Assembly (NCBI GenBank): GCA_964372325.1
Contig: CAYJQG010000001.1
Span: 120 to 64,119 of the forward strand
DNA: 64,000 bases
Source of the DNA: an uncultured Candidatus Saccharibacteria bacterium
GTDB lineage: Bacteria > Patescibacteriota > Minisyncoccia > UBA6257 > JAUSGH01
Direction: 5' to 3'
Positions 3,466 to 54,371 of this stretch are shown in pieces; position 1 is the stretch's first letter, and each line of letters begins with the position of its first letter. Made by a program: the position numbers and the translations under genes. A model generated the notes under the pieces. That model worked only from the letters and a program-made list of their open reading frames with translations. It had not been told where the DNA came from and ran no database searches.

Positions 3466-3601
3466 GGCTACTAAATACGCGGCTACGAAATACGAAAATA
3501 TACGCCTGCCTGCCGGCAGGCAGGAATATACGAAAACGAAAAAAGTTTAGTTTCGTATATTCGTAAAGATTTCGTATTTCGTAGCTGCGTATTTCGTAGC
3601 A
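3466..3601. repeat. family A palindromic repeat with nested GC palindrome
   Basis: Same arms as the 1025-1125 copy, with cctgcctgccggcaggcagg inserted centrally. Between rplQ and rplM. Confidence 0.8.
3505..3524. repeat. 20-bp GC palindrome copy
   Basis: cctgcctgccggcaggcagg inside a family A element. Confidence 0.8.
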
Positions 3602-6016: not shown

Positions 6017-6180
6017 TTAGACTTGGCTCCACGAATAACATTTCGCCTCTGATGTCCATGAATTTTGGCCACGCCTAGTCACAAAAAATCTCAACAGACC
6101 TGCCTATCGGCAGACAGGCCTGCCTGCCGGTAGGTAAGTCGCCTAAAATTCAAGAAAAATTGGTCAAATCGAACAAGCGT
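6017..6180. mobile_element. family D MITE-like element (TIR TAGACTCGGCTCCCGATAA type), degenerate
   Basis: ttagacttggctccacgaataacatttcgcctctgatg...aaaaaatctcaacaga plus tandem GC palindromes. Right TIR eroded. Confidence 0.6.
6099..6136. repeat. tandem degenerate GC palindromes
   Basis: cctgcctatcggcagacagg + cctgcctgccggtaggtaag inside a family D element. Confidence 0.7.
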
Positions 6181-7152: not shown

Positions 7153-7203
7153 AGTATACACAAGAGAAGGTTTAGGGAAGGAGCAGTTTTTTGACGAGAG
7201 TAT

Positions 7204-7338
7204 AGCCACCAACGAAAAAATCCCAAACTTCAAGCATCAAATAACAAATAAATTCCAATTTTTTAAATTCGAATTTATGTTATTGAGTATTATTTGAAAT
7301 TTGGTATTTGAGATTTGGTGTTTATGTTTTTAGTGGCT
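7204..7338. mobile_element. family C MITE-like element (imperfect ~135-bp palindrome centred on AAATTCGAATTT, termini TAGCCACYAACG / CTTTAGTGGCTA)
   Basis: agccaccaacgaaaaaatcccaaacttcaagcatcaaataacaaataaattccaa ... ggtatttgagatttggtgtttatgtttttagtggct. Confidence 0.8.
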
Positions 7339-7415
7339 AATAAGAAGCGAGAAAGCTAACGAAGCTTGTGAGACTTACGCTGTCTATTGTACGGGGAAAA
7401 TACATACATATATAT

Positions 7416-10533: not shown

Positions 10534-11200
10534 AAAATTATTAGCGCGTGGCCGCCTCGGTCACGCGTATCTTTTTTGGGGTGACAGTAACGCGATTGAA
10601 AAATTTGGTGAACAAATTTTGGCGCTAACTGACCAAGGGCAAAAAATATACATCGACGGAAAAATTGTAGGAGTCGAGGGGAAAACCATCGGTATCGACG
10701 AAGTGCGGGAGATCATCCAATTTTTATATAGTAAGCCGCTTCGCGCATCGCACAAAACGGTATTAATTAATCAGGCTGATCGGCTTTCGCTTGAGGCGCA
10801 AAATGCATTATTGAAAATCTTGGAGGAGCCTCCAGGGCATGCGTTGATTATAATGAGTGTGCGAGATAAGGGTGTGCTTATCGAGGCATTACTATCGCGT
10901 ATGCAATGTATGTATATGCCATACAACGATGAAGCGCCGAGTGCGGAGTATATGAATATTGCAGCGCGTTTATTGCGCGGTGGCCCCGCCGAACGCAAAG
11001 CAGCGATCGCCAAATTAATCGAAGACGAAATTGCACTTGAATCGGTGGTGCATGCATTACTCGTCGAGTACAGAAAAGATCCGGTAAAAAATAATGCATT
11101 AATGAAAAGTATCACTATGCGATGGGCAAAAATGTCGCAATATAATACGAATAAAAAGCTGCAGCTCGAAGCGATGTTCATCGAGCCAAACAGGGGTTAA
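10496..11200 (+). CDS. holB: DNA polymerase III delta-prime subunit-like (HolB); start uncertain, overlaps the mreB 3' end
   Basis: GRLGHAYLFWGD, VREIIQFLYSKPLRASHKTVLINQADRLSLEAQNALLKILEEPPGHALIIM is the delta-prime/clamp-loader box. Stop TAA lies inside the terminus of a MITE-C copy. Confidence 0.75.
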   Translation: MFIKDSSLISDFKKLLARGRLGHAYLFWGDSNAIEKFGEQILALTDQGQKIYIDGKIVGVEGKTIGIDEVREIIQFLYSKPLRASHKTVLINQADRLSLEAQNALLKILEEPPGHALIIMSVRDKGVLIEALLSRMQCMYMPYNDEAPSAEYMNIAARLLRGGPAERKAAIAKLIEDEIALESVVHALLVEYRKDPVKNNALMKSITMRWAKMSQYNTNKKLQLEAMFIEPNRG

Positions 11201-11337
11201 CCACTAACGAAAAAATCCCAAACTCCAAGCACCAAATAACAAATAAACTCCAATTTTCGAAATTCGAATTTATACATTGAATATTATTTGGAATTTGGTA
11301 TTTGAGATTTGGTGCTTATGTCTTTAGTGGCTAGTGG
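11199..11337. mobile_element. family C MITE-like element
   Basis: taaccactaacgaaaaaatcccaaactccaagcaccaaataacaaataaactccaa ... tttagtggctag. Supplies the holB stop codon. Confidence 0.8.
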
Positions 11338-12008: not shown

Positions 12009-12083
12009 GACCTGCCTATCGGCAGGCAGGCTCAAAATTCATGAAAAATAGTTCAAAAGCTTATTCGTGGAGCCGAGTCTAAT
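12009..12083. mobile_element. family D MITE-like element, right half only
   Basis: ...cctgcctatcggcaggcaggctcaaaattcatgaaaaatagttcaaaagcttattcgtggagccgagtcta. Confidence 0.55.
12011..12030. repeat. GC palindrome copy (TATCGG variant)
   Basis: cctgcctatcggcaggcagg. Confidence 0.75.
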
Positions 12084-24313: not shown

Positions 24314-25057
24314 ATGAAACTCATCATCGCCAACTGGAAAATGAACCCAGCGACTCTTGAGGAGGCGGCAATATTGGCGCGTGAGTCAGATGTTAAGGGG
24401 TTGGTCATTGCGCCACCATTTCCGTTTCTTGAGACGGTAAGGGCATCAATAAAACAAGCGATGTTGGGGGCGCAGGATGTTTCCGGTAAAGGTGGCACTG
24501 GAGCGTACACCGGCGAGGTTTCAGGAGAAGAGTTACAGTCGTTGGGTGTAACATATGTGATCGTCGGTCACTCCGAACGTCGGGCACTGGGCGAAACCGA
24601 TGAACAAATTGCAGAAAAGATCCGTGCAGTAATAGATGTTGGGCTTATCCCGGTCCTTTGCGTCGGCGAGTCTTGGCAAATGAGAGAGCGCGGAGAACAA
24701 GAATCATTTGTCGCGAAACAATTGCAAGGGGATCTTGCCTTATTACGCGAAGCTACTGAAGCCAAAAAGCTAACGAAGCTAAAAGCCCTGATTGTCGCCT
24801 ACGAACCTCTCTGGGCAATTGGCACCGGAACTCCCGAAACCCCACAAGGCGCAGCAAGTATGATACAATACATTAAAAGGACGCTATTGGCTAGTCGGGG
24901 CTATACCCTAACACCGGTAGTGCTATATGGCGGTTCAGTAAATGCAGTGAATGCAGCGAGTTTCTTAAAAGAAAAAGAGATTGACGGGTTGCTTGTTGGG
25001 GGAGCGAGTCTAGACAGCGAAGAAATTAAAAAGATTGTTGAAATAGCAAAGATTTAA
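24314..25057 (+). CDS. tpiA: triosephosphate isomerase
   Basis: 247 aa. ANWKMN, VGHSERR, AYEPLWAIGTG catalytic motifs. Confidence 0.95.
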   Translation: MKLIIANWKMNPATLEEAAILARESDVKGLVIAPPFPFLETVRASIKQAMLGAQDVSGKGGTGAYTGEVSGEELQSLGVTYVIVGHSERRALGETDEQIAEKIRAVIDVGLIPVLCVGESWQMRERGEQESFVAKQLQGDLALLREATEAKKLTKLKALIVAYEPLWAIGTGTPETPQGAASMIQYIKRTLLASRGYTLTPVVLYGGSVNAVNAASFLKEKEIDGLLVGGASLDSEEIKKIVEIAKI

Positions 25058-25100: not shown

Positions 25101-25850
25101 ATGAAAAACGTAAAACAGCTTTTCTGGTGGATGTTGAATGCCGTATTACTAATGACGATCATTGTGGGTATATTCGCAGTGCGTTACCTCGATCGTTCGA
25201 GTGCGTCAATGACCATTGCGCGTACCATTGTTGTTGAGGGTGTCGGGAAAGTGAAGGTTGTCCCTGATGTGGCCGATCTTACATTCGCAGTAACAACAGA
25301 AGGGACTGAACTAGAAACGATACAAGATCAAAATGCCACAAGCATACAAGAAGGCATTGACCTTATTAAGAGTCAAGGAATCGACGAAAAAGATATCAAG
25401 ACATTCGGTTATAATCTTTCGCCAAAATATACCTATAACGAAAAAAAGAAACAGTCATATATCGATGGCTACACACTGACCCAGAGCGTATCGGTGCATG
25501 TGCGAGATATAAAAAAAGTATCAATAATTTTGGGTGGGCTTCCTGCTCTTGGGATTAATCAAATTAACGGGGTAAATTTTTCTGCTGAAAATCCCGATAT
25601 AGTATTAAACCAAGCACGTGAGTCAGCATTTAAAAAAGCACGCGCGAAGGCAGAGAGCATGGCAAAGCAAAATGAAGTTTCGCTCGGGCGCATAGTGACA
25701 TTTTCAGAGTATCAAGGTGGGGGATATGCAACAAGGTTTTATGGAGCAGATGCGATGGGCGGTAAAGGCGGCGAGGTGGCCCTGCCCCCAATCGAACCAG
25801 GAAGTGAAGAATTAACGGTGAATGTGAGTGTCACCTACGAGCTGCGGTAA
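25101..25850 (+). CDS. SIMPL-domain (DUF541) secreted or periplasmic protein
   Basis: 249 aa. N-terminal TM/signal segment. The conservation pattern across the protein matches the SIMPL family. Confidence 0.65.
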   Translation: MKNVKQLFWWMLNAVLLMTIIVGIFAVRYLDRSSASMTIARTIVVEGVGKVKVVPDVADLTFAVTTEGTELETIQDQNATSIQEGIDLIKSQGIDEKDIKTFGYNLSPKYTYNEKKKQSYIDGYTLTQSVSVHVRDIKKVSIILGGLPALGINQINGVNFSAENPDIVLNQARESAFKKARAKAESMAKQNEVSLGRIVTFSEYQGGGYATRFYGADAMGGKGGEVALPPIEPGSEELTVNVSVTYELR

Positions 25851-25860
25851 AATTGTTTTA

Positions 25861-26036
25861 TTAGACTTGTTCCCTAATAACATTCCGCTTCTTTTTTATG
25901 AATTTCGGCTGCGACTTCGCAAAAAAATCTCAACAGATTCTGTGAATATGCTTCGCTTTTTTTGCTTTGTCTCGCGCGAAATTCATAAAAAATAACTCGA
26001 AAGCTTATCAGGGAACAAGTCTATTCGGAGCTGCAC
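25861..26036. mobile_element. family D MITE-like element, variant TIR
   Basis: TIR tagacttgttccctaataa / ttatcagggaacaagtcta. Interior ...tgaatttcggctgcgacttcgcaaaaaaatctcaacagattctgtgaata... matches the other family D copies. Confidence 0.75.
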
Positions 26037-26042
26037 TCATTA

Positions 26043-26729
26043 ATGGAAGATATCATTAAAGAACAATTGCGGATCAAGACAATCGATGGCGAGGATATCG
26101 CAGGTACGATTTACGAAGCGAAAAATCCTAAAGATGCAGTGCTTTTTGTGCACATGATGCCCGAGACAAAAGAGTCGTGGGATACATTTGCGAATCTCGT
26201 TGCAATAGAAGGCCACACTGGACTTGCAATTGACCTTCGTGGGCATGGGGATTCGAGTGGCGGACCAAAAGGGTACACGCACTTTACTGACGAAGAACAT
26301 CAAAAAAGTATCCTCGACCTTGATGCCGCAGTAAAATTTTTATTAAGCAGGGGCTTTACGTATCAACAAATTACATTTGTTGGGGCGTCGATCGGAGCAA
26401 ATTTAGCGTTGAAATATATGGCCGACCACGGCGATTATCCCGCAGCAGTATTACTATCGCCAGGAACGAATTACCACGGAGTGTTAAGTCGAATTTCTGC
26501 CGCCGAAATAAAACCCGGGCGTAATATATTGTTGGTAAGCGCAAAAGATGATGGTGAAAATGCGAGCGACACGGTCGCAATCGGAGAGGCATTTCTCGAA
26601 GGAGTGCAACGTGCGGTGAAGATCTATGACACCGGTGGGCATGGAACGACGCTACTTAAAACTCAGCCGCAGCTACAGGGGCTTATACAACAATTTTTAG
26701 GAAAGCTTGACAATATTTCAGTGGCTTGA
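26043..26729 (+). CDS. alpha/beta hydrolase family protein
   Basis: 228 aa. Nucleophile elbow VGASIGA (GxSxG), HGDS motif, C-terminal His. Confidence 0.7.
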   Translation: MEDIIKEQLRIKTIDGEDIAGTIYEAKNPKDAVLFVHMMPETKESWDTFANLVAIEGHTGLAIDLRGHGDSSGGPKGYTHFTDEEHQKSILDLDAAVKFLLSRGFTYQQITFVGASIGANLALKYMADHGDYPAAVLLSPGTNYHGVLSRISAAEIKPGRNILLVSAKDDGENASDTVAIGEAFLEGVQRAVKIYDTGGHGTTLLKTQPQLQGLIQQFLGKLDNISVA

Positions 26730-26730
26730 T

Positions 26731-26969
26731 AAAATAGTTAGCTTGCACCTTGAAATTGGAAATCCGCCATTCGCAGCAGAACAGAACTCCAGAAAGGAGG
26801 TTTCCGTTGTGTAGCTGCTGCGAAGCCAGTGTCTGGCAAATTGCGCTTAGTCCTCACGGCGCAAACTCTGACTGAAATCAGGGGGTGGTATGAGGGAATC
26901 CACCTTCGTGCCGGTGAGCTTGCCTATTGTAGGTAGGCTAGGAGCGAAGGCAACGGTCGCGCGTCTCGC
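26731..26969 (+). other. ~240-nt GC-rich structured leader upstream of the 26970 gene (candidate cis-regulatory RNA)
   Basis: Multiple stems (cgcagcag...ctgctgcg; gcgcttagtcctcacggcgc; cagggggtggtatgagggaatccacc). Composition unlike the genome background. No match to riboswitch classes I could recall. Confidence 0.3.
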
Positions 26970-27905
26970 GTGACCACAGAAAAGGGGGGAAAAGAAGAAA
27001 TGAAGCTGACCATCGTAAGCGCCCATAAGAATTCGTTTGGCCGTAATATGCAGCAGTTTGGAATTAGTGGAATGCCGACAATCGGCGTGCGAAGGAACGA
27101 ACAGTTCGGTGTCGTATTCGAAAACACGACTCATCAGCCGGTACAGGTGAAGATTGCAATCGATGGTACCGACATTCTGACCGGCGCCCCGGCGACAACC
27201 GCTACAAATGGCAAGATGTGGTTCGTGAAGCCGTACGAAAAGCTTGTTCTTAAGGCGTGGCCTGAGGACCAGCACGGTGGCGCGCAGTTCGTGTTCACCG
27301 ATGTTGAGAACTCAGTTGCTGCTCATACGCATGGCAATATGGCCGCGCGTGGGTACATCTCCGCTGCGGTGTTCGTCGAAGGGGCACCTCCCCCAATTTC
27401 CCCGAGTTATATGCTCGATAGCCTGACTTTTAGAGGCAATACGCGCGGAGCTTCGAAGGGGATATCGGGTGATATGATGGGCCTTCCGGGCGTTGGTGCG
27501 GGTCAGCGGGTGAACCAGCGCATTGAAGAGGTCTCTGGGCTTCGTAGCCCGAGGTTCTCGGAGATCGTCCAGGTGAAGTACTGTTGGTGGAATGATTTGA
27601 GGAGTAATCCGGAGTTCATCGCGCTCGTTTCTGGCGCGACGTCGGTTGCGACTGCCGTTGTTGGCGAACAGATTTATGCGAACGGTCATCCGACCGGGTT
27701 CCTTGCGGGTAATAATTGGGCAGACCTTGGTACGACTCCGCGTTTGAATAAGGGTGGTCTGCCGACTACGGTGGTTGAGCGGAAAGAAAACTTCAAGGAA
27801 GACGGTTCGCGACGTAACCGGAAGCATAGTCATGTGCAGACCGGTATTTCAAACGATGCGCGCTTCGAAGACACGAACGTCCGCGACCTCGTTGAGACGC
27901 TGTAA
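26970..27905 (+). CDS. hypothetical protein in a GC-rich segment; start possibly ATG 27001
   Basis: 311-aa ORF. Codon usage is GC-richer than genome neighbours. Preceded by a ~240-nt structured GC-rich leader and followed by an intrinsic terminator. Confidence 0.5.
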   Translation: MTTEKGGKEEMKLTIVSAHKNSFGRNMQQFGISGMPTIGVRRNEQFGVVFENTTHQPVQVKIAIDGTDILTGAPATTATNGKMWFVKPYEKLVLKAWPEDQHGGAQFVFTDVENSVAAHTHGNMAARGYISAAVFVEGAPPPISPSYMLDSLTFRGNTRGASKGISGDMMGLPGVGAGQRVNQRIEEVSGLRSPRFSEIVQVKYCWWNDLRSNPEFIALVSGATSVATAVVGEQIYANGHPTGFLAGNNWADLGTTPRLNKGGLPTTVVERKENFKEDGSRRNRKHSHVQTGISNDARFEDTNVRDLVETL

Positions 27906-27936
27906 AAGTAAAAACAGAATTAAGCTCTAAAAGTGT

Positions 27937-27959
27937 CACCCGCCGATGGCGGGTTTTTT
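27937..27959 (+). terminator. intrinsic terminator
   Basis: cccgcc-gat-ggcggg-tttttt. Confidence 0.85.
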
Positions 27960-27960
27960 C

Positions 27961-28150
27961 TATAAAACAATAGACTCGGCTCTCCCGATAACATTTCGGC
28001 TCTGATGCCCATGAATTTCGGCTACGACTTCGTGAAAAAATCTCAACAGACTCTGTGAATAGCTTTCCGTTTTTTCACTTCGTCTCGCCTGCCTGCCGGT
28101 AGGCAGGCTCGAAATGAGCGCAAAAATCCCTCGAAAGCTTATCGGGAGCC
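27961..28150. mobile_element. family D MITE-like element, complete
   Basis: 19-bp TIR tagactcggctctcccgataa / ttatcgggagccgagtcta. Interior carries cctgcctgccggtaggcagg. Confidence 0.85.
28087..28106. repeat. GC palindrome copy
   Basis: cctgcctgccggtaggcagg inside a family D element. Confidence 0.75.
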
Positions 28151-28183
28151 GAGTCTAATACAGCAAGATAACGATAAATAATC

Positions 28184-28206
28184 AAAACTCTCCTTTCGGA
28201 GAGTTT
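28184..28206. terminator. bidirectional hairpin terminator
   Basis: aaactctcc-tttc-ggagagtttt. Confidence 0.7.
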
Positions 28207-28341
28207 TGACCACAAATAGATGAGAGCCGATAGGCTCTGGCATTCCTCGAAGCGAACTCCAGGGAATACTCACACTTCAATCTGTTTGTAGTATAGCAGA
28301 CACCTCGCAGTAAAGTCAAATTTTTGTATGAGGCCCTATGC

Positions 28342-28397
28342 AATTTTTTAATAACTCGAATAACATACGATCGTATGTTATTCGAGTTATTAAAAAA
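28342..28397. repeat. 56-nt perfect palindrome centred on ACGATCGT
   Basis: attttttaataactcgaataacatacgatcgtatgttattcgagttattaaaaaat. All 28 mirror pairs verified by hand. Confidence 0.85.
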
Positions 28398-28417
28398 TCC
28401 CCCAATGGAGGACCAGT

Positions 28418-29428
28418 TTAAATCTCAAGAGATTCTTCTTCGGTTGCAGTACCGGGTTTAGTCTTAGATTTGTTCGTATCAGGCCTAGGGGAGTCCGCAA
28501 GAGATTCTTCAAGCTCCTTCAAAGTTTTCGTGATCGAACGCGCAACTTTCGTATCTGTGCCACTTTCTTTGAGGTGGCTGAGGGCATCGGCGAGTGTTAC
28601 CTTGCGTTCGGTAACGCCAATTGCGACTGCAACGAGTTCGGAAAGCGCTTCGGGATTTTCCAGGCGCAGTACGTGGCTAGAGCCAAGAAGTGCAGACCAG
28701 CGTTTCGTGATCTCCACAGTTCCCCAATATGAAGTTTGGTTGGGGATCACGAAGAAAATCTCGTATTTCTTCGAAGCTTCGGCAAGGATACCTTCAATGG
28801 AGATGTTTTTACGAAGATCGTCGCCAATAATTTTCTTTACCTGCGAAGCAACAACTTCCGCATAGGGCAATTCATCACCGACAATAAAGAGGTACCCCTT
28901 TTTCCCGCGTTTCTCAAAACAATCAATTGCGGTATGGCGTGCAGCGAAGTAAGGTACAAGTTCATACGACTCCTTCATTTGCCCACCGCCACCGGCCTCA
29001 AGGAAAAGACGACTCAAATCATTATCCATTTCAATGCCAGACTCAAATTGCCCAGTTTGGAGGGGCGCCTTGTCGCACCCAACGCTTGCATCGCCAACGG
29101 CGCCGAAGAGGATTTGTGGGTGTGGGACATAGCCTCGTTTAAGGAGAAGTCCCATTAACTTCGGAAGGTTACTTTGGAAAATTCGGGGAGTGTCCTTCAT
29201 GCTTCCGGTAACATCAATAACAAGCATAATTGCGAGCGATTCGGGGTGCGCGGCGCTATCGCGACTTTCTCGAGTGACATTCTTGGGGTTCATGTCGCGA
29301 TTGACTTTACGTTCATTGCTGGGTACAGACTGCATCGAGGCATCGTACGCGAATGCGTCTTTCTTAGTTTTCTTTCGAGCAGCTTTTTTATCAAAATAAG
29401 TTTTATCATCCCAAGAGCCGCCACCCAT
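28418..29428 (-). CDS. von Willebrand factor type A (VWA) domain protein
   Basis: 336 aa. MIDAS motif LVIDVTGSM (DxTxS) with downstream T and D residues. Lys-rich N-terminus. Confidence 0.7.
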   Translation of the reverse strand: MGGGSWDDKTYFDKKAARKKTKKDAFAYDASMQSVPSNERKVNRDMNPKNVTRESRDSAAHPESLAIMLVIDVTGSMKDTPRIFQSNLPKLMGLLLKRGYVPHPQILFGAVGDASVGCDKAPLQTGQFESGIEMDNDLSRLFLEAGGGGQMKESYELVPYFAARHTAIDCFEKRGKKGYLFIVGDELPYAEVVASQVKKIIGDDLRKNISIEGILAEASKKYEIFFVIPNQTSYWGTVEITKRWSALLGSSHVLRLENPEALSELVAVAIGVTERKVTLADALSHLKESGTDTKVARSITKTLKELEESLADSPRPDTNKSKTKPGTATEEESLEI

Positions 29429-29504
29429 GGTGTTTCTCCGTTTTCAAGGTGCCGGGACTAGACGGTATATCTAGCCCTTAATTAAAGTAAAGCAGGTGAA
29501 TAAC

Positions 29505-29525
29505 TTAGTGTCAAGGGGACACTAA
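29505..29525. promoter_or_regulatory. inverted-repeat operator candidate TTAGTGTC-AAGGGG-ACACTAA upstream of the VWA gene
   Basis: Same core motif TAGTGTCAAG-N3-ACACTA recurs at 32061-32080 upstream of the nadE fusion gene. Confidence 0.5.
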
Positions 29526-29572
29526 CAATGAAAAAAGTTCTAATAAAAATCAGAGCACATTGGCTCTGACAG

Positions 29573-32032
29573 TTATCGATAAAGTTTATTTGCTTCAATA
29601 TATTGTGCGACTTCCGTGGTGACAAGATCTGCGATCGATGTCCCTGCGGCAATATATTCTCGAATCAGCGTACTGCGACCGAAGGTAATGGGGAGGTCAA
29701 TGACGCGAGATTTTTTGGGGAGGTCGGCAAGCGCGATAGGCGAGCCAGTGGTATTCAACACTGCGAAGTTGAGGTTGTCCCAAACTTCTTTTCCGCGAAC
29801 CCAGGTTGTTTGGATTGGAGATTGTTGATCGCGGCCATTTGCGACAAGATCACCGCCAATCACAAACCAAAGTTCGGCAGTAGGGAATTGGGTGCTAGCG
29901 CGTTCGGCGAGTGTGATAGTCGGGGTAAATGTGTCTGCATCGAGGTCGGTAAAGTCAAGGGTAACGTTATTAATTTTAGCGAAAGCTTCTTTCGCCATAG
30001 CTTTTCGGTGCAGAAGAGAAACATTCGCGGTAGTTTTTTTATCATGACGCTCGCCACATGGCACCACAAGAACTTTCTCGAACGATTTGCTTAAACACTC
30101 GATGATTGCGCTATGGTGTAACCCCGGTGGGTTAAAACTTCCGCCATATACTGCGATGCGTGTACGCCCCATGAGTTGTGGGAGTACGCGGTCACGCAAA
30201 TATAAGTATTGTGCGGTGAAGTGGGGGGGCGCAAGTGTCTCTTCAAGGTCGCGGCCAAATGCGCGCCTTGAATAAATGGGAACCGGTGGGCATTGAATGC
30301 GCTTAAAGAATCCGCGATGGAAATTACGCACTTGGCGTTCAAGGTCCGTTACAAAATCAGCGGATGTAGGGAATAGGCGCTTTAAGGTTCCGGCATCAAG
30401 TTTGAGTTCTGCCTCGAGTGTGCCTTTAATATAGAGCTCAAGAAACCACTCTGCATTCTTGCGAAAATCGGTAAACGCGCGGACCATTTCGTCGTGGTAG
30501 CCGCGTCGCAATGTGTCGCCATAGTCAAAGGGATCTTTTTGGTTTGCGGAAAGTTCTGCGGTGGGGATTTGGTTAATGCAGGCATCGGGTATAATAAGTC
30601 GGCCAAATTTTTTATTGAGGTATTCCGCGATTTGTCGCACTTCGCGTTTCACGAGGTCGCCTAATGGCGCAAAGTAACCAGCGACATCTCCATAAAGTGT
30701 GCCGTAGCCAAACGCCATTTCAACTTTATTGGTATTGCAGGTAAAAACTCCTCCAAGTTTTTGCGCTTCTGCTGCGAGAACTTCTTCTCGGGCACGTGCT
30801 TGGACATTTTCATAAGTGATCGTTCCAGGAACAATACTTCTCGTTGCGGCGATCGCGTTCACGATATTCTCGATGGGGGCAACTTCGTATGAGATACCGA
30901 GATTTTCCGCAATAGCGCGAGCATAGCCCTTAATAGTATCGCTATTTAAATCTTTGAAAGGCATATTGATTGCATGCACGCGCGCAGGGCCGAATACGTC
31001 AGTCATTAATGCTGCACTCACCGCTGAGTCAATGCCGCCACTAAGGCCAATAACAATCGGTGCTTTAAGTGGGGTAATCGATTTCGTCGCAGCGACCATC
31101 GCGCCATAAAGTTCTTCGGTATCGTTAGGGACTTGGTCGGGGACACGAGCCATGGTTGGCGTAAACGTAAAGTCGCGAGTCTCGGCAACGTAAGGTGAAA
31201 TTTCAAACACTACTTCGCCGTTGCGGTTATACACCGTCGAGCAGCCATCGAACACAATAACGTTTTTTCCTGTTTGCTGGGCGCCGGTGTTATTGACGTA
31301 GATAAACGGAACCGGAGATTCTTTAAGTAGTCGTTCAACAATCATGTGGCGCTTGCGTGTTTTCTGCCACGTCCATGGTGAGGCTGAGAGATTCACAATA
31401 AGCTCAGCGCCCTTAGCGACCAATATTTTTGTGGGGTTTAAGGCGTAGTCCGCATGCCACATATCTTCGCAGAGAATAACACCGAGTCGAATGGTACCGA
31501 GCGGAGTTTGTAGTGGAATGATCGGCAACAAATTACGTAAATGTACATCGCGTTCTTCAGCAAGAGCGCGCATCGAAAAAAAATGTTTTGCGTCATTAAA
31601 GAATCGGTAATTCGGTTGCAGCGACTTAATAGTCCCACCAAAGAATGGTCCTAACGTTTTACCGTCGCGTGCAACGATTGCTCCGTTATGTTTGCGCACT
31701 CTACCATCTTCACCTTTGGCGTTTTGATCTACAGTAACAGTCCCAAAAATCGCGGTAATGGGGAGCCCACGAGTCGATTCGACAATTTTACGATTCAAGC
31801 GAGAAACATCTTCGATAAAGTAAGGATCTTCGAAACGATCGGCAATAATGTACCCCGTAGTTGCAAGTTCGGGGAATATGACAAGGTGCGATCCGCGAGC
31901 TGACGCATATTGGATTTCTTCAATAATATAATTGGCATTGCGATCGGGTCGGCCAGGCTCTACGGGCATTTGAGCCAACGAAACCTTAAGGTCGTTCATC
32001 GATTGCCCTCCATATGCATCGGCTGTAATCAT
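29573..32032 (-). CDS. nadE: tri-domain NAD biosynthesis fusion: nitrilase-type glutaminase, NAD+ synthetase (NadE) and C-terminal nicotinate-nucleotide adenylyltransferase (NadD)
   Basis: 819 aa. N-terminal CN-hydrolase domain (FPELATTGY, catalytic Cys in GVILCEDMWH). Central PP-loop SGGIDSAVSAAL of NadE. C-terminal ~215 aa with RIAVYGGSFNPPGLHH, a (H/T)xGH-type nucleotidyltransferase motif of NadD/NMNAT. Confidence 0.85.
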   Translation of the reverse strand: MITADAYGGQSMNDLKVSLAQMPVEPGRPDRNANYIIEEIQYASARGSHLVIFPELATTGYIIADRFEDPYFIEDVSRLNRKIVESTRGLPITAIFGTVTVDQNAKGEDGRVRKHNGAIVARDGKTLGPFFGGTIKSLQPNYRFFNDAKHFFSMRALAEERDVHLRNLLPIIPLQTPLGTIRLGVILCEDMWHADYALNPTKILVAKGAELIVNLSASPWTWQKTRKRHMIVERLLKESPVPFIYVNNTGAQQTGKNVIVFDGCSTVYNRNGEVVFEISPYVAETRDFTFTPTMARVPDQVPNDTEELYGAMVAATKSITPLKAPIVIGLSGGIDSAVSAALMTDVFGPARVHAINMPFKDLNSDTIKGYARAIAENLGISYEVAPIENIVNAIAATRSIVPGTITYENVQARAREEVLAAEAQKLGGVFTCNTNKVEMAFGYGTLYGDVAGYFAPLGDLVKREVRQIAEYLNKKFGRLIIPDACINQIPTAELSANQKDPFDYGDTLRRGYHDEMVRAFTDFRKNAEWFLELYIKGTLEAELKLDAGTLKRLFPTSADFVTDLERQVRNFHRGFFKRIQCPPVPIYSRRAFGRDLEETLAPPHFTAQYLYLRDRVLPQLMGRTRIAVYGGSFNPPGLHHSAIIECLSKSFEKVLVVPCGERHDKKTTANVSLLHRKAMAKEAFAKINNVTLDFTDLDADTFTPTITLAERASTQFPTAELWFVIGGDLVANGRDQQSPIQTTWVRGKEVWDNLNFAVLNTTGSPIALADLPKKSRVIDLPITFGRSTLIREYIAAGTSIADLVTTEVAQYIEANKLYR

Positions 32033-45992: not shown

Positions 45993-47723
45993 ATGGCCGA
46001 CACGCAAGAAATCAAAAATAAAATAGACGTTGTGGATTTTATAGGGGCATATGTAAAGTTGATGCCTGCGGGAAAGAATTTTAAGGGTCTTTGTCCATTC
46101 CACAAAGAAAAGAGTCCGTCGTTTATGGTCACTCGCGACAGGCAGTCGTGGCATTGTTTTGGTTGTAATGAGGGCGGAGATATTTTTAAATTTTTAATGC
46201 AGTTTGAGCACCTCGAATTTTTTGAGGCGTTAAAAATATTAGCCGAACGTGCAGGGGTAGAGCTGAAGGGTGGGCAAGGAATGGAGTCATATCGAGAGTT
46301 ATATGAGGTAAACCTTGTCGCTAAAGATTTTTTTAAACAAGAATTACAAAAATTAGGCGCGCATCAAGAGCATGCAAGGGCATATCTTCAATCGCGTGGG
46401 TTGAAAAAAGAAACCATTGATACGTTTGAAATTGGTGTGGCTTCTACGAGTTCAGATGCATTGCTACGGTATTTAATTGCAGCGAAAAAGTCGCTGCACG
46501 ACATTGAGCGTGCTGGGTTGGTATTTCGTAGCGAGCGGGGGACGTACTTCGACCGTTTCAGAGGGCGGATTATGTTCCCGCTATATAATAGTTTCGGGAA
46601 AGTGGTAGGGTTTACTGGCCGTGTGCTTCCGGGGAGCGAGCAGTTGAGCGGATTCGAGGCCGCAAAATACGTTAATAGTCCCGAGACACCGATTTTTAGT
46701 AAATCAAAGTTGTTGTATGGCTTTTACGCGGCGAAACAACATATTCGTGAGACGAAAACAGTAGTCATAGTGGAGGGTCAGATGGATTTTTTAATGTCTT
46801 GGCAAGATGGGGTAAAGAATGTGGTAGCGTCATCGGGTACTGCGCTAACCGTTGATCAGTTAACGACACTTCGGCGCATTGCCGATACGGTGATATTGAG
46901 TTTCGATACCGATGCAGCGGGGATCGCCGCTGCAGAGCGAAGCATTGACACAGCACACAACATGGATTTTACTGTACGTTTGCTCGAAGTGGTGGGTTAC
47001 AAAGATCCCGCAGACGCAGTGCTAGGAGAGCCTGGTGCAATGGCACGTTTTATTGTAAACGCAAAACCAGCGCTGACCTATTACATTGATCGCTATATTC
47101 GTGATGGCGATGAGGCGGCAGTACAAAAACGGAATGTGCGCATAGTACTCGCAAAAATAAAACAAATGGAAAGTGCAATCGAGCGCCAGCATGCGATTCG
47201 GGCGTTAGGAGAGCGCGCGGGGCTCTCCGAAGAAGTATTAATGGAAGAGTTGCAACGTGTGGTAGTAGCAAATGCGCCGGTGATCAAAAAACGACAAGAT
47301 GAAATCGCGGCGGTATATGAAGAAAAGCGCTCACGTAGTGGGGCGATAAGCGAACGTCTACTCGGTCTTGCGTTGGTTGATGCAACGCTATTAAAAGAGA
47401 TGGAGTCAATGATAAAATTTATGGAAGAGCCATACCGTATGCTGTATGGGCACATCGTTAACGGGTCGTTACTCGATGTGCCGGGTCCCTTGCGTATACT
47501 CGCAGATAAAATAAGTTTAAGCGGGGGGTTGCTGGGTAACAGTGGAGAAAAAGGTGAGTCGGTGGTATTGTGTCGCGAGCTAAAACAGGAATATTTGAAG
47601 GGTCGCAGTGAAGCATTGCGTAGAGCGATTGCGTTGGCAGAGCGGCAAGGAGACGAAACGGCTCTTGGAAACGCGCTTAAAGAATTTGACGAAACAAACA
47701 AGGCGCTCCATACTCTAAGCTAG
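45993..47723 (+). CDS. dnaG: DNA primase
   Basis: CHC2 zinc finger (CPFHKEKSPSFMV...WHCFGCNEGGD), TOPRIM (VVIVEGQMDFL, SFDTDAAG). Start taken at MADTQEI. Stop TAG is the first triplet of a MITE-C copy. Confidence 0.9.
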   Translation: MADTQEIKNKIDVVDFIGAYVKLMPAGKNFKGLCPFHKEKSPSFMVTRDRQSWHCFGCNEGGDIFKFLMQFEHLEFFEALKILAERAGVELKGGQGMESYRELYEVNLVAKDFFKQELQKLGAHQEHARAYLQSRGLKKETIDTFEIGVASTSSDALLRYLIAAKKSLHDIERAGLVFRSERGTYFDRFRGRIMFPLYNSFGKVVGFTGRVLPGSEQLSGFEAAKYVNSPETPIFSKSKLLYGFYAAKQHIRETKTVVIVEGQMDFLMSWQDGVKNVVASSGTALTVDQLTTLRRIADTVILSFDTDAAGIAAAERSIDTAHNMDFTVRLLEVVGYKDPADAVLGEPGAMARFIVNAKPALTYYIDRYIRDGDEAAVQKRNVRIVLAKIKQMESAIERQHAIRALGERAGLSEEVLMEELQRVVVANAPVIKKRQDEIAAVYEEKRSRSGAISERLLGLALVDATLLKEMESMIKFMEEPYRMLYGHIVNGSLLDVPGPLRILADKISLSGGLLGNSGEKGESVVLCRELKQEYLKGRSEALRRAIALAERQGDETALGNALKEFDETNKALHTLS

Positions 47724-47882
47724 TAGTATTCGCCACTTATGATATAGCCACCAAAGATACAAGCACCAAATCTCAAATACCAAATTCCAAATAATATTTA
47801 ATAACTTAAATTCGAATTTAAAAAATTAGAATTTATTTGTTATTTGATGCTTGAAGTTTGGGATTTTTCCATTAGTGGCTAG
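47722..47882. mobile_element. family C MITE-like element, inverted relative to the 45022-45192 copy
   Basis: gtagtattcgccacttatgatatagccaccaaagatacaagcaccaaatctcaaatacc .... Begins with the dnaG stop codon TAG. Confidence 0.85.
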
Positions 47883-47911: not shown

Positions 47912-49138
47912 ATGTCATCAAAAGCAATAATAAAAAAGAAAAAGGTACAGCGCACGGGAAAACAGAAAAAAAGATTGGTGCAGGGCGCGCAGAAAGTAAA
48001 GAAAGCAGTGAGGGTGAAATTGGTAAGCAAAAAACATAAATTGAATAAGAAGGAAGCTGCACGGCAGAAGCAAAACTTGAGCCAACTCGATGAGTTAATT
48101 AGCCGTGGAAAGGGGAGGGGGTTTGTGACCGATGGAGAAGTACTCCACTATTTTCCTCGCGTGGAAAACGACATTAAGTTTCTCGAAGAGGTCTATGCGC
48201 GTCTTGAAGAAGTTGGTATGAAAGTGGTAGAAACAAGCCAACTCATCGAAACACCGAAAGAAGAGATTAGCGTAAAGGAACTTGAAGAGGCCACGCAGTT
48301 CGAAGGCGAACTCCCCGATGCCGTGCAAATGTATTTAAAAGAAATTGGTAAGACGCAACTTTTAACCGGAGAAGACGAAAAAGAATTAGCCAAACGCGTA
48401 GAATCTGGCGACGAAGAAGCGCGCAAGAAATTTATTCAAGCAAATTTACGGTTAGTGGTTTCGATTGCAAAGCGTTATGTCAATCGTTCACCAAATTTAA
48501 GCATCTTGGACCTCGTGCAGGAGGGGAATATTGGCCTCTCGAGAGCGGTCATAAAATTTGACTACCGAAGAGGTTTCAAGTTTTCGACATATGCAACATG
48601 GTGGATCCGCCAAGCAATTACCCGTGCATTAGCCGACCAGTCGCGTACCATTCGTATCCCGGTACACATGGTCGAAGTAATTTCGAAGTACACTCAGGCA
48701 AAACGACGATTGCTCCAAGAGCTTGGTCGCGAGCCATTACCCGAAGAGATCGCAATTGAGTTGAATATGCCACTCGAGAAGGTGCACCATATTCAAAAAA
48801 TATCTCAAGAAGTCATTTCACTAGAGTCGCCAGTTGGAGACGACGACGAAGACTCAACCTTGTCAGAGTTTATTCCCGACGAACGAAACCTTACACCTTC
48901 TCAAACCGCCTCTCAGGCGTTATTGGGTGACAAAATTCGAGAAATTTTAATTGATCTCACGCCTCGCGAACAAGAAATTTTAAAAATGCGTTTTGGGCTA
49001 GAAGATGGCATTACACATACCCTAGAAGAAGTGGGGCATGAATTTGGCGTGACAAGAGAGCGCATTCGACAAATCGAAGCGAAGGCATTAGGAAGGATTA
49101 AGATACACGAGAAGGCTCATATGCTCGAGGGCTACTAG
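47912..49138 (+). CDS. rpoD: RNA polymerase sigma factor RpoD (primary sigma-70)
   Basis: Regions 1.2 to 4.2 present ([52 protein letters not shown]). Start at ATG 47912; GTG 47882 lies in the MITE. Stop TAG overlaps the next MITE-C copy. Confidence 0.9.
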
Positions 49139-49265
49139 CGAAAAAATCCCAAACTCCAAGCATCAAATAACAAATAAATTCTAATTTTTTAAATTCGAAT
49201 TTATATATTGGATATTATTTGGAATTTGGTATTTGAGATTTGGTGCTTGTATCTTTGGTGGCTAT
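49133..49265. mobile_element. family C MITE-like element
   Basis: ctagcgaaaaaatcccaaactccaagcatcaaataacaaataaattctaa ... tatctttggtggctat. Overlaps the rpoD stop codon. Confidence 0.8.
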
Positions 49266-49320
49266 ACCCTAAACCCTCGTCAGATTGCGGTGGTTAGCCC
49301 GGTATGCTATACTCTATTTT

Positions 49321-52964: not shown

Positions 52965-53017
52965 AGATTGGTTGTTTGAAACTGGAAACGCCAAGTCCAA
53001 AAAAGAAGGAGGCTCGC

Positions 53018-53452
53018 ATGAACATGAAGCTTTCAGTAAACGAAGCGGTTGGGGTTTTTGGGCGAGGAGTTATGATCCCAGAAATTCCAATATCGAGCGA
53101 GGAACTGGAGAAGTTCCGTGGTACGCATCTTTTGATCTTGAAACCCTTCGTGTCAAATTATTTGATCTGGGCCTTGGTTGGACTGGATGCCCGTGAGACC
53201 ACGGCGGCATCGGCCCACAGTGGGTTACCCACAGTCAAAGACCTTTTGTATTTTGAAGAAGCAATGCGTAAGGAGCGTAACGTCAGGCCGTGGCATGGCC
53301 TGTGGCTTTTGACCAGCGAACGGGATCAATTTAATCGTCCCGTCGCCATTCAGTTTTACGATGGTGGGTGGCGCGTGACGAGCGTCGAATCGCTCGACGC
53401 GACGCGTTTGGGCGGTGCCCCGCTCGTCGCCGTCGAGATTCGCCATCTATAA
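53018..53452 (+). CDS. hypothetical small protein with consensus promoter and strong SD
   Basis: 144 aa from ATG 53018, 7 nt downstream of aaggagg. The ORF-track 52976 start is upstream of the SD. Consensus TTGACA-17-TATAAT promoter at 52936-52964. GC-richer codons. Followed by an 11-bp GC hairpin. Confidence 0.5.
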   Translation: MNMKLSVNEAVGVFGRGVMIPEIPISSEELEKFRGTHLLILKPFVSNYLIWALVGLDARETTAASAHSGLPTVKDLLYFEEAMRKERNVRPWHGLWLLTSERDQFNRPVAIQFYDGGWRVTSVESLDATRLGGAPLVAVEIRHL

Positions 53453-54171: not shown

Positions 54172-54186
54172 ATAGGAATTATATCA

Positions 54187-54371
54187 CTAGACTCGGCTCC
54201 CGATAACATTTCATCTCTTTTTTATGAATTTCGGCTACGACATCCGCGAAAAAGATTCAGTAGATACACCGTATATACTTCATCTTTTTCGTCTCGTCTC
54301 GCCTGCCTGCCGGCAGGCAGGCTCAAAATTCATAAAAAATAGCTCGAAAGCTTATCGGGAGCCGAGTCTGC
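54187..54371. mobile_element. family D MITE-like element, complete
   Basis: TIR tagactcggctcccgataa / ttatcgggagccgagtctg. Interior carries cctgcctgccggcaggcagg and gctcaaaattcataaaaaatagctcgaaagc. Confidence 0.85.
54302..54321. repeat. GC palindrome copy
   Basis: cctgcctgccggcaggcagg inside a family D element. Confidence 0.8.

What the first reader, a model, noticed from the sequence alone, without database searches (positions are those of the whole stretch)
26043..28400. GC-rich segment (alpha/beta hydrolase plus 311-aa unknown with long structured leader) bracketed by two family D MITEs
Composition and codon usage differ from core genes. Family D copies lie at 25861-26036 and 27961-28150. 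The unknown gene has a ~240-nt GC-rich leader with multiple stems, which may be a riboswitch-like regulator. The arrangement is consistent with a MITE-flanked acquired module.
Basis: partly seen in the sequence, partly recalled or inferred. Interest (0 to 1): 0.5.

Follow-up and report, generated by a model that had tools for sequence, protein, structure and literature searches.

The report
Foreign phage-type gene with structured leader
Only one gene of the flagged segment is foreign: a stand-alone unit (promoter, 257-base folded leader, 301-residue protein of unknown function, terminator) from a protein family found mostly in giant phages. The neighbouring hydrolase is a native gene, and the two flanking repeat elements are incidental.

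Summary
The sequence features are real, but the proposed unit is wrong.

**Repeats.** Two family D palindromic repeats lie at 25862-26023 and 27971-28157, with a third at 54188-54370. However, 28 of 36 intergenic gaps in this window carry such repeats, so flanking by repeats is the norm here.

**Hydrolase (26043-26729).** It has ordinary composition (GC3 z = -0.7). It belongs to a TIM-SIMPL-hydrolase block conserved in two related Patescibacteria-like genomes, both of which lack the next gene. It is native.

**The foreign part.** Only about 26775-27900 is GC-rich: leader 0.54, coding sequence 0.54, GC3 0.60 (z = +3.4, the most extreme of 51 ORFs). This is a self-contained unit:
- a near-consensus promoter at 26707-26735;
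- a unique, strongly folded leader of about 257 nt (z = -4.45, no Rfam match);
- a 301-aa ORF starting at ATG 27000;
- an intrinsic terminator at 27938-27960.

**The protein.** The family has no Pfam model and no name, and its predicted fold is Ig-like. It occurs mainly on jumbo-phage contigs, where its GC matches its surroundings. It is sporadic in low-GC bacterial loci, where it is again GC-rich and preceded by a long folded leader.

**Open points.** Protein function and the leader's role are unresolved, and a riboswitch is not demonstrated.

The parts
25862..26023 (.). Family D palindromic repeat element (MITE-like), copy 1. It is inserted between the native SIMPL and hydrolase genes and is not part of the foreign unit.
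   Evidence: Terminal inverted repeats TAGACTTGTTCCC.../...GGGAACAAGTCTA. Similar to 27971-28157 and 54188-54370. In relatives L120 and L121 the SIMPL and hydrolase genes abut or overlap with no element between them.
26043..26729 (+). Alpha/beta hydrolase gene: native, with ordinary composition. Its last ~7-10 codons (from about 26700) extend beyond the orthologues and overlap the promoter of the next unit.
   Evidence: Pfam Hydrolase_4 and Abhydrolase_1. GC 0.457, GC3 0.415. 1355 homologues, those that carry a name being from Patescibacteria, Parcubacteria or Harrisonbacteria. Conserved TIM-SIMPL-hydrolase synteny. C-terminal extension seen in alignment A8.
26707..26735 (+). Sigma-70-type promoter-like site TTGACA-17-TAAAAT with a TG extension. 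Predicted transcription start is at about 26742-26744.
   Evidence: 11 of 12 consensus matches, the best site in 25700-29700. Equivalent near-consensus sites lie 190-305 nt upstream of homologues in L005, L055 and L001.
26743..26999 (+). A 5' leader of about 257 nt, GC 0.54, predicted to form seven consecutive hairpins. A long-range pairing joins the 5' UCCGCC to the G-run of the ribosome-binding site. It contains a 27-codon upstream ORF (26890-26973) of unknown significance.
   Evidence: Fold z = -4.45. Unique in the window and not repeat-derived. No Rfam match at E <= 10. No tRNA or tmRNA. ORF list. G-run unpaired probability 0.0-0.7.
27000..27905 (+). A 301-aa protein ('X') of an unnamed family. 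It has an N-terminal Ig-like beta-sandwich (residues 1-130), a disordered linker, and a conserved beta-hairpin plus helix (160-210). It then has a tail that, in this copy, is extended past the family's usual Y-x-R-F end.
27938..27960 (+). Intrinsic terminator: a 7-bp stem with 6 G-C pairs, followed by a T-run.
   Evidence: sequence read.
27971..28157 (.). Family D palindromic repeat element, copy 2, immediately downstream of the terminator.
   Evidence: Arms TAGACTCGGCTC / GAGCCGAGTCTA at 27971-27982 and 28146-28157. 77% identical to 54185-54369.

Best explanation
The atypical DNA is a single-gene, self-contained transcription unit at about 26700-27960: promoter, structured leader of about 257 nt, 301-aa ORF and terminator. 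It was acquired horizontally and sits directly after a conserved native gene block, at the point where synteny with relatives ends.

Its protein belongs to an uncharacterised family with an Ig-like beta-sandwich fold. The main reservoir of that family is jumbo phages. Low-GC bacteria, here and in at least four other loci (one a Candidatus Woesebacteria genome), carry sporadic copies. Those copies are much more GC-rich than their surroundings and are preceded by a near-consensus promoter and a 190-305 nt folded leader.

The hydrolase is native. The two family D repeats are independent insertions of an element family that fills most intergenic gaps of this genome.

Likely working (inferred, not shown):
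- Transcription starts at about 26743 from the promoter embedded in the hydrolase's 3' end.
- The leader folds into stacked hairpins with its 5' end paired to the G-rich ribosome-binding site. It therefore acts after transcription, on ribosome access and/or mRNA stability.
- Transcription stops at 27938-27960.
- The protein most likely acts as a binding module. It has a conserved acidic/histidine cluster (DGTD, WPE, HTHG) on a PapD/MSP-like sandwich. It shows no recognisable catalytic fold.
For: **Composition**
- X and its leader are the extreme outliers of the window, whereas the hydrolase is average.

**Synteny**
- PBP2...TIM-SIMPL-hydrolase is conserved at 51-56% amino-acid identity in L120 and L121.
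- X is absent from both relatives, and gene order diverges right after the hydrolase.
- The hydrolase's C-terminal extension coincides with the promoter.

**Unit anatomy**
- Promoter and terminator were found by consensus scan.
- The leader folds strongly.
- The leader is unique in the window.

**Distribution**
- 41 IMG/VR loci were found, many on contigs of 150-620 kb, plus 68 metagenome loci.
- Only one locus was recovered from 185,579 GTDB species genomes.
- GenBank phages gave no hit.

**GC pattern across loci**
- In phage loci the gene's GC and GC3 match the locus, and the upstream gap is 15-130 nt.
- In low-GC bacterial-type loci (window, L001, L005, L055, L115) GC3 exceeds the neighbours by 0.16-0.23.
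- In the four of those loci with enough upstream DNA (L115 has only 76 nt before the contig end), the upstream non-coding gap is 270-430 nt.
- Near-consensus promoters precede the gene there too.

**Not translational codon bias**
- The ribosomal protein genes in the window are not GC3-rich (0.40-0.51).

**Repeats**
- 28 of 36 intergenic gaps bear repeats.
Against: - No insertion scars were found. There is no exact flanking direct repeat of 7 nt or more, only an 11-mer with one mismatch that chance can produce. No integrase, tRNA or att site lies nearby.
- The nearest relatives share only 51-59% protein identity, so synteny cannot date the insertion or fix its edges.
- The bacterial-type X proteins are only 44-61% identical to each other yet all remain GC-rich. 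That is awkward for a single old acquisition and requires either repeated transfers or selection for GC.
- Promoter, terminator and leader function rest on consensus scans and folding predictions.
- The ribosome-binding site is not more occluded than in 45 other genes of the window.
- Protein function is unknown.
Confidence: 0.72

Rival explanations
1. One reading: the hydrolase plus the unknown gene form one acquired module mobilised or delimited by the two family D repeats, as a composite MITE-flanked unit.
For: Two copies of the same repeat family, in direct orientation, flank the two genes.
Against: - The hydrolase has native composition.
- It is part of a conserved TIM-SIMPL-hydrolase block in relatives that lack X and lack the repeat.
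- The compositional boundary lies inside the bracket.
- Repeats occupy 28 of 36 intergenic gaps.
- Family D has further copies elsewhere in the window.
Confidence: 0.05
2. X is an old native gene whose high GC3 reflects selection (expression-linked codon bias, or constraints on mRNA structure or stability) rather than recent transfer.
For: The GC3 excess recurs in five low-GC loci although their X proteins are only 44-61% identical. That would be expected if GC were maintained by selection. X also has a strong promoter.
Against: - X is absent from both syntenic relatives.
- Only one GTDB species genome was recovered.
- Genomic contexts differ in every bacterial locus.
- Ribosomal protein genes in the window are not GC3-rich.
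- The family is abundant on phage contigs.
Confidence: 0.1
3. X and the adjacent convergent 336-aa gene (28418-29428, minus strand; phrog_2971) are together the remnant of a degraded prophage.
For: - Both genes belong to phage-associated families: X on jumbo-phage contigs; the 336-aa protein in phrog_2971 (1e-61) and in 220 GenBank phages, for example Mycobacterium phage Catera gp250.
- They are adjacent, and they lie beyond the synteny break.
Against: - The 336-aa gene has host-like composition (GC3 z = +0.6).
- Its family has at least 3954 members spread across bacterial phyla.
- It was never found within +/-5 kb of the X homologues held at that point, L001-L046.
- No integrase, structural or att features lie nearby.
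Confidence: 0.12
4. The leader is a ligand-sensing riboswitch or another dedicated cis-regulatory RNA controlling X.
For: - The leader is long, unique and strongly structured.
- Long folded leaders behind near-consensus promoters recur upstream of bacterial-type X genes.
- Four of those leaders (L005, L055, L118, L001) form a sequence-conserved family, with two stems kept through some compensatory changes although the proteins are only 50-59% identical.
- The G-run of the ribosome-binding site is predicted to be paired.
Against: - No Rfam match for the window leader or for L005 and L055.
- No terminator lies within the leader.
- The window leader is not detectably related to the other leaders by nhmmer. 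The covariance model places it at noise level: 8.7 bits, E = 8, rank 21 of 23.
- The only other copy, L119, is 100% identical, so there is no covariation to test.
- Occlusion of the ribosome-binding site is within the background range.
Confidence: 0.15

Closest known systems
Phage 'morons': autonomous promoter-gene-terminator units of atypical composition, described in lambdoid prophages by Hendrix and colleagues (cited from my own knowledge)
   Same: One gene with its own sigma-70-type promoter and intrinsic terminator. Its nucleotide composition differs clearly from the flanks. Its distribution is patchy, and its protein family has a phage reservoir.
   Different: It sits in a bacterial chromosome next to native housekeeping genes, not between genes of a recognisable prophage. 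It carries an unusually long structured 5' leader. The donor is unknown.
Composite units flanked by two MITE copies, such as MITE-bracketed integrons or resistance genes reported in Acinetobacter (cited from my own knowledge)
   Same: Two copies of one palindromic repeat family with terminal inverted repeats flank a short gene segment.
   Different: One of the two flanked genes is native by synteny and composition. The repeats are ubiquitous in this genome's intergenic gaps. There is no evidence that the block moved as a unit.
Riboswitches and other 5'-leader cis-regulators catalogued in Rfam
   Same: A long, multi-helix, thermodynamically unusual 5' untranslated region lies directly upstream of a single gene. 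The ribosome-binding site is predicted to take part in pairing.
   Different: It matches none of 4227 Rfam models. It has no transcription-terminator expression platform. It has no demonstrated conserved aptamer.
PapD / MSP / ASH-type Ig-like beta-sandwich domains
   Same: The predicted fold of residues 1-130 gives weak structural matches to Caf1M, MSP/VAP and CEP192 ASH domains, and to GH2 and Pycsar AGS-C Ig-like domains.
NARP2 phage NAD+ reconstitution genes, NAMPT plus NMNAT/Nudix (bioRxiv 10.1101/2024.02.11.579819; PMC13464706 for context)
   Same: In many jumbo-phage loci X lies immediately upstream of NMNAT-Nudix and NAMPT genes, whatever the upstream neighbour is.
   Different: After dereplication the linkage holds in only 15 of 44 X clusters at 70% identity, and in 6 of 30 at 60%. 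It is absent from all bacterial-type loci. X has no resemblance to any NAD enzyme.

Membership tests
MITE-flanked composite mobile unit | Two copies of the same MITE family flank the segment | tested here: met
   Family D copies at 25862-26023 and 27971-28157.
MITE-flanked composite mobile unit | The whole flanked segment is foreign to the site, present or absent as one block | tested here: not met
   The hydrolase is conserved next to SIMPL in L120 and L121, without X or the repeat. The hydrolase's composition is native.
MITE-flanked composite mobile unit | A target-site duplication at the outer ends of the composite | tested here: inconclusive
   The elements start and end with TA, so a TA duplication would be uninformative. 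The outer flanks (GTTTTAT / ATACAGC) are not identical.
Moron-like autonomous acquired transcription unit | Own promoter and own terminator around a single gene | tested here: met
   TTGACA-17-TAAAAT at 26707-26735 and a terminator at 27938-27960, by consensus scan only.
Moron-like autonomous acquired transcription unit | Composition different from the flanking DNA | tested here: met
   GC 0.544 and GC3 0.603 against window ORF means of 0.463 and 0.446 (z = +2.7 and +3.4).
Moron-like autonomous acquired transcription unit | Embedded in a prophage genome | tested here: not met
   The left neighbours are native TIM-SIMPL-hydrolase. The right neighbour is a single phrog_2971 gene. No integrase, structural genes or att site were seen.
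Riboswitch (any Rfam class) | Match to a curated aptamer covariance model | tested here: not met
   No hit in 26731-26999 even at E <= 10.
Riboswitch (any Rfam class) | Structure conserved with covariation among homologous leaders | tested here: inconclusive
   The only other copy is identical (L119). nhmmer and covariance model R1, built from other X leaders, do not recover it.
Riboswitch (any Rfam class) | An expression platform: a terminator/antiterminator or a helix that sequesters the ribosome-binding site | tested here: inconclusive
   No terminator lies in the leader. The G-run of the ribosome-binding site is partly paired, but accessibility is within the range of 45 other genes.
Unnamed X protein family (jumbo-phage associated) | The N-terminal domain motifs (E34, DGTD 55-58, WPE 87-89, HTHG 109-112) and the C-terminal module (GAG 166-168, Q173, Y194, WW 196-197, TPR) | tested here: met
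   These are invariant or nearly invariant columns in A1, A3 and A4, and all are present in the window protein. The full-length profile hit for P0001 is 2e-85.
Unnamed X protein family (jumbo-phage associated) | The C-terminus ends in Y/F-x-R-F/L shortly after the TPR motif | tested here: not met
   The window protein instead carries a tail of about 40 residues, with ARFED placed internally.

The most novel reading that the evidence does not exclude
X may be an unrecognised phage-host conflict factor. In jumbo phages it is kept beside NAD+-salvage and RNA-repair genes. Patescibacteria may have captured it repeatedly as a ready-made cassette. Its persistently GC-rich coding sequence and long folded leaders would then be maintained by selection. 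Those leaders include a conserved, Rfam-absent leader family in L005, L055, L118 and L001. Together this would amount to a new protein family and a new class of cis-regulatory RNA.
Probability: 0.12. Interest if true: 0.65.

Novelty: new member of a known kind. Interest (0 to 1): 0.36.

Why it matters
**For annotating this genome.**
- The proposed 'island' shrinks to one gene.
- The hydrolase is cleared of being foreign.
- Repeat bracketing is shown to be uninformative in a repeat-saturated genome.

**More broadly.**
- It points to a sizeable protein family with no name and no Pfam model: 188 representative clusters at E <= 1e-30, and thousands at the domain level. The family is shared between jumbo phages and candidate-phyla bacteria.
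- It also points to a recurrent pattern that nothing here explains: GC-rich copies with long folded leaders in low-GC hosts.
- If the leaders are regulatory, they would be among the few cis-regulatory RNAs known for Patescibacteria.

Tried and rejected
**RNA searches**
- Rfam at the gathering thresholds and at E <= 10 gave only spurious miRNA-type hits, on the repeats and on a palindrome.
- ARAGORN found nothing.
- The leader as a pseudogene remnant or repeat derivative: tblastx and blastn-short found nothing.
- Homology of the window leader to other X leaders: nhmmer found none. Covariance model R1 scored 8.7 bits, E = 8, below many repeat hairpins.
- Occlusion of the ribosome-binding site as a distinguishing feature: not beyond background.

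**Protein function**
- Pfam, PHROGs, NCBIfam and PADLOC gave no family for X. A Pfam scan of 144 family members gave only weak Ig-like hits.
- A PDB sequence profile search gave nothing.
- BFVD gave uncharacterised giant-virus, nudivirus and baculovirus proteins with low TM-scores.
- The afdb50 library was unavailable.

**Context**
- Linkage of X to the 336-aa gene, the hydrolase, SIMPL or NadE in other loci: none.
- Flanking direct repeats around the cassette: none exact of 7 nt or more.
- The NAD-gene linkage as a functional clue was weakened by dereplication.
- The organism could not be named: the exact-protein look-up returned no record or name.
Full report
**What is at the coordinates**

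On the plus strand, 24.3-29.5 kb reads as follows:
- triosephosphate isomerase, 24314-25057;
- a SIMPL/DUF541 protein, 25101-25850;
- a 192-nt gap;
- an alpha/beta hydrolase, 26043-26729;
- a 270-nt gap;
- an ORF of unknown function, 26970/27000-27905;
- a 512-nt gap;
- on the minus strand, a 336-aa gene, 28418-29428.

Alignment with homologues and the database entry P0001 put the start of the unknown ORF at ATG 27000, giving 301 aa, rather than GTG 26970.

**The repeats**

Family D is real. The elements have terminal inverted repeats TAGACTYG...CRAGTCTA.
- Full copies occupy 25862-26023, 27971-28157 and 54188-54370.
- Fragments lie at 6018-6099 and 12011-12080.
- The terminal motif occurs 6 times against 0.37 expected by chance.

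The window is saturated with such palindromic elements, however. Of 36 intergenic gaps of at least 80 nt, 28 carry DNA repeated elsewhere in the window. Repeats on both sides of a pair of genes are therefore the default state here and not a signature of anything.

**Composition**

Across 51 ORFs of at least 120 aa, mean GC is 0.463 (sd 0.030) and mean GC3 is 0.446 (sd 0.046).

| Feature | GC | GC3 | z (GC / GC3) |
|---|---|---|---|
| Hydrolase | 0.457 | 0.415 | -0.2 / -0.7 |
| Unknown ORF 'X' | 0.544 | 0.603 | +2.7 / +3.4 (highest in the window) |
| Leader | 0.538 | n/a | n/a |

- The 1-kb bin 27001-28000 (GC 0.535) is the richest of the 64 bins.
- With 150-nt windows the rise begins at about 26775 and ends at about 27900.
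- Codon bias from high expression is an unlikely cause, because the ribosomal protein genes at 626-2242 have GC3 of 0.40-0.51.

**Synteny**

- The hydrolase has 1355 homologues at E <= 1e-20. Those that carry names are from Patescibacteria, Parcubacteria or Harrisonbacteria.
- Two related genomes (GCA_040960315.1 = L120; GCA_030649055.1 = L121) keep the order PBP2 ... TIM - SIMPL - hydrolase, at 51-56% amino-acid identity to the window.
- In both relatives SIMPL and the hydrolase abut or overlap, and gene order diverges directly after the hydrolase.
- Neither relative has X.
- The hydrolase is therefore native. The left family D copy is an insertion between two native genes. X sits at a synteny break.
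- The window hydrolase carries about 7 extra C-terminal residues (LDNISVA) compared with its orthologues. Their codons contain the -35 box of the X promoter. This fits, but does not prove, a left edge of the insert near 26700.
- No exact flanking direct repeat of 7 nt or more was found. The single 11-mer with one mismatch (26684 / 27961) is within chance.

**The unit**

- A near-consensus promoter, TTGACA-17-TAAAAT with a TG extension (11 of 12 matches), lies at 26707-26735.
- An intrinsic terminator lies at 27938-27960.
- The leader of about 257 nt between them folds to -104.7 kcal/mol against -84.7 +/- 4.5 for shuffles, z = -4.45. The prediction is seven hairpins enclosed by pairing of the 5' UCCGCC with the G-run of the ribosome-binding site.
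- The leader is unique in the window, not repeat-derived, and shows no coding similarity to any fetched locus.
- It matches no Rfam family at E <= 10 and holds no tRNA or tmRNA.
- It contains a 27-codon ATG ORF (26890-26973) of unknown significance.
- Accessibility of the ribosome-binding site is within the range of 45 other genes.
- The only other copy, a 1460-nt contig from run ERR4904390, is 100% identical. No covariation test is therefore possible.

**The protein family**

- The word-index search found 37 proteins, none with a Pfam domain or a name.
- The exhaustive profile search found 188, 1179 and 3425 representative clusters at E <= 1e-30, 1e-10 and 1e-3 respectively.
- Pfam, PHROGs, NCBIfam and PADLOC give nothing beyond weak Ig-like hits.
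- The AlphaFold2 model has pLDDT 77 and pTM 0.73. It shows a confident beta-sandwich (residues 1-130), a disordered linker, a conserved beta-hairpin plus helix (160-210), and a floppy tail.
- The conserved residues are E34, DGTD 55-58, WPE 87-89, HTHG 109-112, GAG 166-168, Q173 and Y194-x-WW. They suggest a binding or metal site, but no catalytic fold is recognisable.
- The N-domain also occurs in other architectures. One example is a Burkholderia megaplasmid protein next to an SbcCD-like gene pair (hhalign probability 96.7%).

**Where the family lives**

- 41 IMG/VR loci were found, many on contigs of 150-620 kb.
- 68 metagenome loci were found.
- One locus was recovered from the GTDB species genomes, a Candidatus Woesebacteria MAG (L005).
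- GenBank phages gave no hit.

The two kinds of locus differ consistently:

| Property | Phage loci | Low-GC bacterial-type loci (window, L001, L005, L055, L115) |
|---|---|---|
| X GC and GC3 compared with neighbours | Tracks them | GC3 higher by 0.16-0.23 |
| Upstream non-coding gap | 15-130 nt | 270-430 nt (L115 not assessable) |
| Gene contexts | Conserved within phage clades | All different |

Near-consensus promoters lie 190-305 nt upstream of X in L005, L055 and L001. The leaders there fold strongly as well: L005 z = -7.8, L001 z = -3.8.

**Leaders of homologues**

- The leaders of L005, L055, L118 and L001 are mutually recognisable by nhmmer.
- They share two stems with a few compensatory changes, although their X proteins are only 50-59% identical. 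This is a candidate conserved leader RNA that is absent from Rfam.
- The window leader is not detectably a member. nhmmer finds nothing.
- A covariance model of the 5' domain does place its full-length alignment exactly at 26745-26829, but at 8.7 bits, E = 8, below many repeat hairpins.
- What the window shares with the others is the architecture, not demonstrable homology.

**Neighbours in phages**

- X is preceded by an RNA-ligase-like gene, by a glycosyltransferase / pyruvyl-transferase pair, or by a class V aminotransferase.
- In many loci it is followed by NMNAT-Nudix and NAMPT, the NARP2 NAD+ salvage pair (bioRxiv 10.1101/2024.02.11.579819).
- After dereplicating X at 70% and 60% identity, this linkage holds in 15 of 44 and 6 of 30 clusters respectively. 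It is largely clade synteny and only a weak functional hint.
- The window's own NadE-NMNAT fusion lies 1.7 kb away. It is probably a coincidence, since L001 and L005 have no NAD genes nearby.

**Conclusion**

The finding resolves into three separate things:
- a native hydrolase;
- incidental repeat insertions;
- a moron-like, horizontally acquired single-gene unit encoding a phage-associated protein of unknown function behind a long, unique, strongly folded leader.

Which steps are shown and which are inferred:
- **Shown:** the composition outlier, the synteny break, the family's distribution, the fold statistics, and the absence of known RNA or protein family matches.
- **Inferred:** promoter and terminator use, post-transcriptional control through the leader, the binding role of the protein, and the phage-to-bacterium direction of transfer.
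- **Unexplained:** why diverged bacterial copies all stay GC-rich.

Noticed in passing
window 28168-28285 (minus strand), promoter-like site at 28319-28290: Candidate small RNA of about 110 nt. It has a promoter-like TTGACT-18-TATACT site with TG, three hairpins, and a 16-bp terminator-like stem with a U tract (28213-28178). Fold z = -5.0. No Rfam match.
   Followed up: partly
window 28345-28399: Perfect palindrome with 27-nt arms, directly after the stop codon of the 336-aa minus-strand gene. It resembles a bidirectional terminator and produces spurious miRNA hits in Rfam.
   Followed up: no
window 28418-29428 (minus strand): A 336-aa protein with a MIDAS-like DVTGSM motif and no Pfam domain. 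It matches phrog_2971 at 1e-61. It has at least 3954 homologues at about 50% identity across phyla (Planctomycetota, Gemmata) and in 220 GenBank phages, for example Mycobacterium phage Catera gp250. This is a large conserved family without annotation.
   Followed up: partly
window 29573-32032 (minus strand): An 819-aa fusion of CN-hydrolase, NAD synthase and an NMNAT-like cytidylyltransferase domain. It lies 1.7 kb from X, whose phage homologues often sit beside NAD salvage genes. The proximity is probably a coincidence.
   Followed up: partly
window, whole (for example 1024-1123, 3481-3600, 7203-7339, 11198-11333, 45041-45188, 47722-47869, 49131-49272): Several families of palindromic MITE-like repeats occupy 28 of 36 intergenic gaps of at least 80 nt. 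One pair (45041-45188 / 47722-47869) consists of 100% complementary 148-nt arms flanking a 595-aa gene.
   Followed up: partly
window 52976-53452 (+) and 37680-38939 (-): Two further composition outliers without Pfam domains: a 158-aa ORF with GC3 0.579 (z = +2.9) and a 419-aa ORF with GC 0.372 (z = -3.0). Both may be other acquired genes.
   Followed up: no
L005 4740-5000; L055 3695-4000; L118 185-386; L001 5800-6000: A conserved leader family lies upstream of X homologues in low-GC bacterial loci. It shares the motif GCACCUUAA, a 9-10-bp stem GUAGRGAG / CUCYCUAC with compensatory changes, and a long GGYUGGUGG / CCAUCARYC hairpin. It is absent from Rfam and is a candidate new cis-regulatory RNA.
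   Followed up: partly
L001, L005, L055, L115 (X genes) compared with their flanks: The GC3 excess of X (+0.16 to +0.23) recurs in every low-GC bacterial locus, although the X proteins are only 44-61% identical. Amelioration has apparently not happened, which points to repeated transfer or to selection for GC. This is unexplained.
   Followed up: partly
L122 4608-10249 (Burkholderia sp. JSH-S8 megaplasmid CP110394.1): A 254-aa hypothetical protein carries the X N-domain (hhalign probability 96.7%). It lies directly upstream of a Metallophos nuclease and a 1156-aa AAA_27/SMC-like ATPase. The domain therefore occurs in other architectures.
   Followed up: partly
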